A stretch of DNA of 64,000 nt. Source: the human T2T-CHM13v2.0 reference genome, Homo sapiens. Positions 52,701 through 54,336 of the stretch are shown here, piece by piece. The notes under the pieces are model-generated. The model saw only the letters and a list, made by a program, of their open reading frames with translations. It was not told where the DNA came from and did no database searches. The translations under genes were made by a program, and so were the position numbers. Where the stretch lies: the NCBI RefSeq assembly GCF_009914755.1, contig NC_060927.1, one strand, 5' to 3'. Position 1 is the stretch's first letter; each line of letters opens with the position of its first letter.

Positions 52701-53904
52701 ATAAAGTTGTCTTCAAGTATCAAGGCATCAAGTTTTATACTTTAATATGCAGTGATTTTTACATTACTAGTTCAAGATACATGTTGGTAGTTCTTGAAAA
52801 TCCTGATATTTAATTATCAATGTAGTTATTTGGAAAGTAAGTAATGTTATATAATTAATTGCCATTTTTTCTCTTAAAATTGAATTTCAATGTTTTTATT
52901 TGATCATATATTTTTTGGAAAGTATCTTGGTTTCTAATATCAGCCCCATGATTTGCTACTATTGTTGTTTAGTTTTTAATTAAAATATAGAAATAATAAC
53001 AATAACACTTACTTGGTAGTATGAATAACACCTACTTGATATTGAGAATGTACAGCATCAGTGCTTTAAAAATCTTTTCATCTGGCTTGGTACATCATGT
53101 TGAAGAACTATGGCTATTTTTCTTTAAAAGCTGTAAATTTTAATTTGCAATTAAATATTTTACTTTTATATTGTTTTAATTTCTAAAGGAGAGGAAATCC
53201 TGGAATTCTCTTTAAGAACGTATCAGTGTGCCATATTTACATTCTATAAAGGAATGGTATACCATTTTTAATGAGTACATATTAAACTAATAATTTCTGT
53301 AGCTTATTTTTCACTTCTTATGTCAACTTTTCTATTTTTCACTCCAAATCATTGACATCATTCTGTTTACGGGAAGGAAAAGCAATTGTATAGAAAATAA
53401 TCTGGAAAGCAAACAGTGTGGTCTCAGACCACTGAAGGATAGCAACTTCTCCTGGTTCAGCTCCCAGAGGTTAGAAAAGTAAAGATATATCTTCCCTTGG
53501 GATAATCTGTCTTTCCTCTGAGCTCTTTGAGTGTAGGGAAGGGCCCAAAGGGAAAAGTCAACTAGCCAGATCAACAGCTTAGATGACAGTGAACAAATGC
53601 TTGACTAGAACGTTTGTTCTGATGAAGTAATTCAATAGAATATTTAGTGTCATGGGCTTGGAATATTAAGATACTTTGTTCAGGTAGGTCAGTGATTATT
53701 TACTGACAGACTAAGTTACATAGGAAATAATGACCTTCCTAAAATCTTAGTTATGTAAAATCCCCAAATACAATTTACTTTGCAGAATTGTGATACGAAT
53801 ATACATATCAAAGTACAAAGCAATAGGGAAAGACCCTTTTAGGTCAAGATGCTCCTGTGTATAAAATGAAATATTAAACTTTTTTTTTTTATTCAAGGGA
53901 TACA

Positions 53905-53950
53905 AACTAACCATTATCTTTCTTCTCTTTCTCTTTCCTTTTAGGTGAGT
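53905..53950 (+). promoter_or_regulatory. Candidate recursive splice site: branch point, polypyrimidine tract, TAG|GTGAGT
   Basis: aactaac (branch A at 53910, about -35), uninterrupted pyrimidines 53917-53942, AG at 53943-53944 immediately followed by GTGAGT at 53945-53950; no other AG between 53898 and 53942. Confidence 0.8.
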
Positions 53951-54017
53951 AACTGAAGGTTAAAGCCAGAATTCCTGGATTTGAAGTGTTATATGCTTTT
54001 TTATTAGTGTCCTGTGG
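53945..54017 (+). other. Candidate 73-nt RS-exon (poison/cryptic exon)
   Basis: Bounded by the acceptor at 53944 and the donor TGG|GTAAGT (54018-54023); length not a multiple of 3; stops in all three frames in gtgagtaactga. Confidence 0.72.
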
Positions 54018-54336
54018 GTAAGTAAAGAAAAAGACTTGGCTTAAACACCAGACTGGATGCTGAATCATGCATAGATATAAATTAATCAGATGTGGCCCTT
54101 TATCACTCAATGTCATGATCAAATATTTAAAACTACTCAATGTTAGACACAAGCATGGAGGAGGAATTTTTTTTCTAATTCTTAGTTATTATAATTGTGC
54201 CATTTAGAACTAGCACATAAGTAAATTAGGGTGCTTCACACTTATATGCCGATGTCTTTTGACAGAGCTGTTGCCAGTGGATATACTTTAGATGGCAGAC
54301 TGTGTGAAAAACATAAATGAAGATATAATATTGGTT

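What the first reader, a model, noticed from the sequence alone, without database searches (positions are those of the whole stretch)
53905..54023. Recursive splice site (AG|GTGAGT) with a defined 73-nt RS-exon
Seen in sequence: a near-ideal branch point (AACTAAC, A at about -35), an AG-free zone, 26 uninterrupted pyrimidines and TAG followed directly by the consensus donor GTGAGT. A second consensus donor (TGG|GTAAGT) lies 73 nt downstream, all in non-repeat DNA. Established: a 3' splice site fused to a GURAG 5' splice site is the recursive-splicing or ratchet-point signature, first shown in Drosophila Ubx. In vertebrates (Sibley et al. 2015; Duff et al. 2015) such sites occur in very long introns, mostly of neuronal genes, and are recognised by exon definition of a downstream RS-exon whose own donor competes with the regenerated donor. 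Inference: the host intron is removed in steps at 53944/53945, leaving no trace in the mature mRNA. I cannot tell whether this is an already published site or a new one.
Basis: partly seen in the sequence, partly recalled or inferred. Interest (0 to 1): 0.92.

Follow-up and report, generated by a model that had tools for sequence, protein, structure and literature searches.

The report
Known CADM2 recursive splice site RS1

Summary
A tract-plus-AG|GTRAGT pattern matches once in the window and in 0 of 100 shuffles.

The site is the published CADM2 RS1. Zhang et al. 2018 list it at hg19 chr3:85288106, with 3' splice strength 14.09 and PhastCons 1. Setting that position to window 53944 puts 3 of their 4 other nearby candidates exactly on an AGGT. 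No other of 33,843 anchors does this. Boone et al. 2025 give the same distance from exon 1 (279,287 nt), a 73-bp recursive exon, and loss of exon 1-RE1 splicing after CRISPR deletion.

From the genome I located exon 1. It ends AAG in phase 1, 279,260 nt upstream. Joining it rebuilds AAG|GTGAGT (9 of 9 consensus) and puts a TAA in frame at the third codon.

RNA and conservation evidence comes from papers, not from my own tests.

The parts
53905..53911 (+). Branch-point-like motif AACTAAC; presumed branch A at 53910, 34 nt before the acceptor G
   Evidence: sequence. Use as a branch point is inferred; no lariat data were seen.
53898..53942 (+). AG-free zone of 45 nt between the nearest upstream AG (53896-53897) and the acceptor AG
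53917..53942 (+). Polypyrimidine tract, 26 uninterrupted C/T
   Evidence: Published 3' splice strength is 14.09, the highest of the CADM2 candidates shown and of the rows shown.
53943..53950 (+). Recursive splice site AG|GTGAGT, junction 53944|53945; this is CADM2 RS1 (hg19 chr3:85288106)
   Evidence: for the sequence. for the mapping to the published coordinate. for the published site.
53945..54017 (+). Recursive exon RE1, 73 nt, with stop codons in all three frames within its first 12 nt
   Evidence: length, translations. (published RE1 is 73 bp).
53950..53952 (+). TAA that is in frame when exon 1 (phase 1) is joined to RE1; the reading becomes ...LLLQ-G-E-stop
   Evidence: Boone et al. state that the RE holds a premature termination codon.
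54015..54023 (+). RE1's own 5' splice site TGG|GTAAGT (7 of 9 consensus positions), which defines the exon and competes with the rebuilt donor
   Evidence: (Boone: RE1's native 5' splice site can be used).

Best explanation
Window 53944|53945 is CADM2 RS1, the first of two established recursive splice sites in the roughly 767-kb first intron of CADM2 (plus strand, sense). The proposed mechanism has three steps.

1. The spliceosome recognises the 73-nt recursive exon RE1 (53945-54017) by exon definition, using the very strong 3' splice site (branch motif, 26-nt pyrimidine tract, TAG) and RE1's own donor TGG|GTAAGT.
2. Exon 1, which lies about 279 kb upstream and ends AAG, is spliced to 53945. 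This removes the first intron segment and creates a perfect donor, AAG|GTGAGT, at the new junction.
3. The rebuilt donor is then used with a downstream acceptor (RS2 or exon 2), so RE1 and the rest of the intron are removed and no trace of RE1 remains.

If RE1's own donor is used instead, RE1 stays in the transcript and an in-frame TAA three codons after the junction should send it to nonsense-mediated decay.

Shown here: the sequence anatomy, identity with the published coordinate, the rebuilt donor and the in-frame stop. Taken from papers: the junction, the saw-tooth, the deletion effects and the conservation. Inferred: branch-point use and the order of events on a single molecule.
For: Anatomy.

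Rarity of the composite motif in the window: 1 match against 0 of 100 shuffles; the only 1 of 476 AGGT sites with at least 18 of 20 pyrimidines and a full GTRAGT.

Identity with the published site: with hg19 85288106 set to window 53944, 3 of the 4 other Zhang candidates that fall in the window land exactly on an AGGT, and the fourth is 17 nt off. Among 33,843 anchor positions only 53944 gives 3 coincidences; 5 give 2 and 550 give 1.

Distance: the exon 1 end to the site is 279,260 nt in this assembly, against 279,287 in hg19 and hg38.

Length: RE1 is 73 bp in print and 73 nt here.

Donors and frame: the rebuilt donor AAG|GTGAGT matches 9 of 9 consensus positions, RE1's donor 7 of 9 and exon 1's native donor 7 of 9. 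The joined reading frame stops at the third codon.

Published function:
- Saw-tooth coverage, an exon 1-RE1 qPCR junction, and its loss (99% in homozygotes, 44-47% in heterozygotes) after a 599-bp deletion or inversion, with CADM2 expression down 23% in homozygotes.
- Read-density steps at the site with permutation P of 4e-4 to 5e-4 in the H9 and FB sheets, and PhastCons 1.
- Mouse Cadm2 RS1 intermediates found by RT-PCR.
- The main-isoform CADM2 cryptic RS-exon described as undergoing 'very efficient RS' in a reporter. That passage gives no coordinates, so equating it with RS1 is my inference.
Against: All evidence of use and conservation is second-hand.

The founding paper (Sibley et al. 2015) is not held. 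I know it only through citations in other papers.

Boone 2025 is a preprint. Its tables and its figure showing the RE1 sequence were not seen.

The exon 1-to-site distance differs by 27 nt between this assembly and hg19/hg38. I attribute this to small indels (one 17-nt shift is visible), but I made no base-level liftover.

The exon 1 boundary is my own reading of L002 (an ATG-led frame followed by GTAATC), not an annotation.

My crude U1 duplex energies barely separate the rebuilt donor (-10.4) from RE1's own donor (-10.0 kcal/mol). The claim that the rebuilt donor wins therefore rests on consensus matches and on the papers.

RE1 is not always recursive: transcripts that keep RE1 and RE1-to-RE2 splicing are reported.

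The lariat-based catalogue of Hoppe 2023 has 0 mentions of CADM2 in its 3 held supplementary files.
Confidence: 0.96

Rival explanations
1. The element is mainly a poison (nonsense-mediated-decay) cassette exon. RE1 is spliced in through its own donor and the transcript is degraded, which lowers CADM2 output. Recursion at the rebuilt donor is the minor outcome.
For: RE1 has stops in all three frames and an in-frame TAA after exon 1. Its own donor pairs with U1 nearly as well as the rebuilt one in my crude estimate. Boone et al. find reconstructed transcripts that contain RE1 and RE1-to-RE2 junctions, and say RE1 is not always recursive.
Against: Deleting the site lowers CADM2 expression by 23% in homozygotes; it does not raise it. 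That is the opposite of what removing a dominant poison exon predicts. The main-isoform CADM2 RS-exon is reported to be skipped very efficiently by recursion unless an EJC component is tethered. The rebuilt donor matches 9 of 9 consensus positions against 7 of 9 for RE1's donor.
Confidence: 0.03
2. It is a chance juxtaposition of splice-like motifs in a 767-kb intron that has no function and is not the published site.
For: AGGTRAGT alone occurs at the chance rate in the window (5 against 4.54 expected). The strict genome-wide pattern is not enriched over its backwards-read control (11 against 33).
Against: The composite pattern appears in 0 of 100 shuffles. The coordinate mapping is unique among 33,843 anchors. 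The published exon length of 73 bp matches exactly. Published values are PhastCons 1 and 3' splice strength 14.09. Published deletion experiments show an effect.
Confidence: 0.01

Closest known systems
CADM2 RS1 and recursive exon RE1 (Sibley et al. 2015, known to me only through citations; Zhang et al. 2018 supplementary tables; Boone et al. 2025 preprint)
   Same: It is the same locus. The mapping comes from the anchor test. The distance from exon 1 agrees within 27 nt of 279 kb. The 73-nt exon matches, and so does the premature stop.
   Different: Nothing found. The window is the T2T-CHM13 copy, and the papers use hg19 or hg38.
CADM2 RS2 (second recursive site, about 273 kb further downstream, outside the window)
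   Same: Same intron and same kind of element, with a saw-tooth waypoint.
   Different: RS2's exon is 42 bp. It overlaps an alternative exon that is retained when a minor promoter drives the gene. RS1's exon is cryptic and normally removed.
Drosophila zero-nucleotide ratchet points (Ubx; Duff et al. 2015; recalled and cited in papers read here, not read itself)
   Same: A 3' splice site fused to a GTRAGT donor, and stepwise removal of a long intron.
   Different: The vertebrate model depends on exon definition of a downstream RS-exon whose donor competes with the rebuilt one. The fly sites were first described as having no exon.
Annotated RS-exons repressed by the exon junction complex (Blazquez et al. 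2018)
   Same: The same AG|GTRAGT start of an exon, which rebuilds a donor after the first splicing step.
   Different: Those exons are mostly constitutive and are kept in the mRNA because the EJC blocks the rebuilt donor. RE1 is cryptic and is normally lost.

Membership tests
Vertebrate recursive splice site with RS-exon (Sibley type) | A 3' splice site directly fused to a 5' splice site: YAG|GTRAGT preceded by a pyrimidine tract | tested here: met
   TAG|GTGAGT with 26 pyrimidines upstream. 1 match against 0 of 100 shuffles.
Vertebrate recursive splice site with RS-exon (Sibley type) | Lies in sense orientation deep inside a very long intron | tested here: met
   The hub table puts CADM2 on the plus strand across the whole window. 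The site is 279,260 nt after the end of exon 1. The intron is 766,852 nt in Zhang's table and 767 kb in Boone.
Vertebrate recursive splice site with RS-exon (Sibley type) | A downstream RS-exon with its own 5' splice site | tested here: met
   A 73-nt exon ending TGG|GTAAGT, equal to the published 73-bp RE1.
Vertebrate recursive splice site with RS-exon (Sibley type) | Joining the upstream exon rebuilds a strong 5' splice site that competes with the RS-exon's donor | tested here: met
   AAG|GTGAGT matches 9 of 9 consensus positions against 7 of 9 for RE1's donor. U1 duplex energies are -10.4 against -10.0 kcal/mol, so the margin by energy is small. MaxEntScan was not available.
Vertebrate recursive splice site with RS-exon (Sibley type) | The RS-exon carries a premature stop if it is retained | tested here: met
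   An in-frame TAA at 53950-53952 after exon 1 in phase 1; stops in all three frames.
Vertebrate recursive splice site with RS-exon (Sibley type) | RNA evidence: upstream exon-to-RS junction reads, saw-tooth coverage, and loss on deletion | not testable with these tools
   Published only: Boone: qPCR junction, saw-tooth, CRISPR deletion; Zhang: read-density change, P of 4e-4 to 5e-4.
Vertebrate recursive splice site with RS-exon (Sibley type) | Conservation of the AG|GT and the RS-exon donor across vertebrates | not testable with these tools
   No vertebrate genome other than the window's own is held. Published: PhastCons 1; mouse Cadm2 RS1 validated by RT-PCR; an apparent rat RS1 whose deletion ablates RS.
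CADM2 RS1 (this specific published site) | Same genomic position as hg19 chr3:85288106 / hg38 chr3:85238956-7 | tested here: met
   Anchor test: 3 of 4 other published candidates coincide exactly, which is unique among 33,843 anchors. The distance from exon 1 is 279,260 nt against 279,287.

The most novel reading that the evidence does not exclude
RE1 may be a tunable switch as well as a transient waypoint. Its own donor is nearly as good a U1 partner as the rebuilt one, and stops in all three frames within its first 12 nt make any retained copy non-productive. Cell-type differences in EJC or U1 activity at this one site could therefore set CADM2 dosage. A related possibility is that further conserved AG|GT candidates in the window (45427 and 45526, PhastCons about 1 in Zhang's list) are additional, uncharacterised waypoints among the 'four RSSs' that a 2026 preprint reports for CADM2.
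Probability: 0.12. Interest if true: 0.4.

Novelty: already known. Interest (0 to 1): 0.12.

Why it matters
The site matters biologically, but that is already in print. According to Boone et al. 2025, rare deletions that remove CADM2 RS1 are associated with ADHD. Engineered deletions of about 600 bp abolish recursive splicing and lower CADM2 expression in human neurons, and deletions of the corresponding site change behaviour in rats. For the scan, the result shows that reading raw sequence alone can pick out a true vertebrate recursive splice site with its RS-exon. It adds no new biology.

Tried and rejected
- Sibley et al. 2015 could not be read. It is not held under its PMC id or its DOI, so its role is known to me only through citing papers.
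- Zhang 2018 does not mention CADM2 in its main text (0 occurrences). The site appears only in its supplementary tables.
- The supplements of Hoppe 2023 hold no CADM2 entry (0 occurrences in 3 files).
- Boone 2025 puts its guides, primers, exact coordinates and the RE1 sequence in supplementary tables and figures. A primer-level or letter-by-letter comparison with the printed RE1 was therefore not possible, and I used the anchor test instead.
- A DNA search of the window's own genome with 53860-54060 found only the site itself (1 match), so there is no paralogous copy at that sensitivity.
- Rfam found nothing in the window (0 matches at gathering scores).
- MaxEntScan and SpliceAI scoring and phyloP were not available. 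I used consensus counts and a crude U1 duplex energy in their place.
- I considered and rejected a chance motif and a plain poison exon as the main reading (see the rival explanations).

Full report
**Observation.**
- AACTAAC lies at 53905-53911. Its sixth base, the presumed branch A, is at 53910, 34 nt before the acceptor G.
- The nearest upstream AG is at 53896-53897, which leaves a 45-nt AG-free zone.
- There are 26 uninterrupted pyrimidines at 53917-53942.
- TAG|GTGAGT has its junction at 53944|53945.
- The first GTAAGT downstream starts at 54018 in the context TGG|GTAAGT, so the putative exon 53945-54017 is exactly 73 nt.
- None of the masked stretches in the hub's table overlaps the site.

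**Chance.** The octamer AGGTRAGT alone is unremarkable: 5 matches on both strands against 4.54 expected, with 42 of 100 shuffles reaching 5. With a pyrimidine tract added (Y12-N-Y-AG|GTRAGT) there is 1 match, this one, and none in 100 shuffles. Of the 476 AGGT sites in the window (252 plus strand, 224 minus strand), it is the only one with at least 18 of 20 pyrimidines upstream and a full GTRAGT. In the whole assembly the stricter pattern Y20-N-Y-AG|GTRAGT has 11 matches, 5 forward and 6 reverse, which the tool calls a lower bound. The backwards-read control has 33. The composite is therefore rare but not enriched genome-wide, and the motif alone would not prove function.

**What it is.** A literature search for 'recursive splicing' and 'CADM2' found 12 papers, 9 of them listed.

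Boone et al. 2025 (bioRxiv 10.1101/2025.08.14.666599) was read as abstract, passages and sections 3, 5, 6, 10, 16, 29 and 35. It describes two recursive sites in the 767-kb first intron of CADM2. The exon 1 end is at chr3:84959669 and the RE1 start at chr3:85238956/7, which is 279,287 nt into the intron. RE1 is 73 bp.

The supplementary tables of Zhang et al. 2018 (PMC6110456) list the same site at hg19 chr3:85288106, also 279,287 nt from the left splice site. The 3' splice strength is 14.09 and PhastCons is 1. The read-density changes are significant in the H9 and FB sheets, with P of 4e-4 to 5e-4. The value 14.09 is the highest among the rows shown and among the CADM2 candidates shown.

**Mapping to the window.** No liftover tool was available, so I used Zhang's full candidate list as anchors. 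Four other CADM2 candidates should fall in the window, at offsets -30157, -11315, -8517 and -8418 from 85288106. With 85288106 set to window 53944, three of the four land exactly on an AGGT (42629, 45427, 45526). The fourth has an AGGT 17 nt away (23804), as a small indel between assemblies would give. As a control I tried every one of the 33,843 anchor positions that keep all four offsets inside the window. Only 53944 gives 3 coincidences; 5 positions give 2, 550 give 1 and 33,287 give none. Together with the identical 73-nt exon length, this identifies the site as CADM2 RS1.

**Upstream exon.** The window's assembly is held, so I fetched chr3:85023900-85025100 as L002. It holds an ATG-led frame reading MIWKRSAVLRFYSVCGLLLQ, followed by AAG|GTAATC. 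I read this as the end of exon 1 at CHM13 chr3:85024684, which is window coordinate -225316. The boundary is my reading, not an annotation. The distance to 53944 is 279,260 nt, 27 nt short of the published 279,287, and small indels between assemblies would account for that. The coding part of exon 1 is 61 nt, so the exon ends in phase 1.

Joining exon 1 to RE1 gives ...LLLQ-G-E-stop, the stop being the TAA at 53950-53952. This agrees with the published statement that RE1 holds a premature termination codon. RE1 in fact has stops in all three frames within its first 12 nt.

**Donor strengths.**

| Donor | Sequence | Consensus matches | U1 duplex energy (kcal/mol) |
|---|---|---|---|
| Rebuilt (exon 1 + RS site) | AAG\|GTGAGT | 9 of 9 | -10.4 |
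| RE1's own | TGG\|GTAAGT | 7 of 9 | -10.0 |
| Exon 1 native | AAG\|GTAATC | 7 of 9 | -6.6 |

By consensus the rebuilt donor is the best of the three. By this crude energy its lead over RE1's donor is small.

**How it works.** The best-supported mechanism is the published vertebrate model.
1. RE1 is recognised by exon definition.
2. Exon 1 is spliced to 53945 and the first 279 kb are removed.
3. The rebuilt donor is then used with a downstream acceptor, so RE1 is lost with the next intron segment.

Published support for this model:
- Saw-tooth coverage with waypoints at RS1 and RS2.
- An exon 1-RE1 junction measured by qPCR. After a 599-bp deletion or inversion it is eliminated in homozygotes (99% decrease) and reduced by 44-47% in heterozygotes. 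Overall CADM2 expression falls by 23% in homozygotes.
[quoted passage not shown] That passage gives no coordinates, so equating it with RS1 is my inference.
- Mouse Cadm2 RS1 intermediates found by RT-PCR (PMC8797253, passages).
- An apparent rat RS1 whose deletion ablates RS in a dose-dependent way.

A review (PMC5126111, passages) and Boone's discussion also report from Sibley et al. that an antisense oligonucleotide against the zebrafish cadm2a RS-exon donor lowered mRNA roughly two-fold.

Branch-point use at 53910 is inferred, and so is the order of events on a single molecule.

**Results that qualify the reading.**
- RE1 is not always recursive. Boone et al. reconstruct transcripts containing RE1, report RE1-to-RE2 splicing, and conclude that RE1's own donor can be used.
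- All RNA and conservation evidence is second-hand. No RNA-seq and no other vertebrate genome could be examined here.
- Sibley et al. 2015 is not held.
- Boone's supplementary tables and figures were not seen. They hold the exact coordinates, guides, primers and the printed RE1 sequence.
- Hoppe 2023's three held supplementary files do not mention CADM2.
- Zhang's main text does not mention CADM2 either.

**Rivals.** Reading the element mainly as a poison exon fits the stops and the good RE1 donor. It is contradicted by the fall in CADM2 expression when the site is deleted, where a rise would be expected, and by the efficient recursion seen in reporters. A chance motif is excluded by the mapping, the exact exon length and the published function.

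**Comparison with what is known.** The site is itself the known element, CADM2 RS1, so both the membership test and the 'works like' question have the same answer. It differs from CADM2 RS2, which has a 42-bp exon that overlaps an alternative exon used from a minor promoter. It also differs from the fly ratchet points, which were first described as having no exon at all (recalled).

**Verdict.** Interest for the scan is low.

Noticed in passing
window 45427 and 45526 (+): Two further AG|GT candidates from Zhang 2018's list lie 99 nt apart (ATAG|GTAATA, 3' strength 10.18, PhastCons 0.997; TTAG|GTCATT, 7.31, PhastCons 1). This points to a conserved block about 8.5 kb upstream of RS1. They are in the candidate table. 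No CADM2 site other than RS1 turned up in the searches of the two later tables (only the 85288106 rows were displayed; part 1 of 2 of the saw-tooth table was read). A 2026 preprint says CADM2 holds four RSSs, but its tables were not seen.
   Followed up: partly
window 58810 (+): CCCAG|GTTAGT with 17 of 20 pyrimidines upstream is the second-best AG|GT site in the window by my crude ranking. It is not in Zhang's candidate list, and its +3 base is T, where the consensus has a purine.
   Followed up: partly
G000 (whole assembly), 10 other places listed: Only 11 places in the assembly match Y20-N-Y-AG|GTRAGT, a lower bound by the tool's own warning, and CADM2 RS1 is one of them. I did not check whether any of the other 10 is a known or new recursive site or an ordinary exon start.
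   Followed up: no
window 23804 (+): Zhang's candidate at hg19 85257949 maps 17 nt away from the position predicted from RS1. This indicates a small net length difference between hg19 and T2T-CHM13 somewhere in the 30 kb between the two sites.
   Followed up: no
window 53945-53956: The first 12 nt of RE1 (GTGAGTAACTGA) hold a stop in each of the three reading frames. The stop in one frame follows from the GTGAGT donor itself; the other two are extra.
   Followed up: partly
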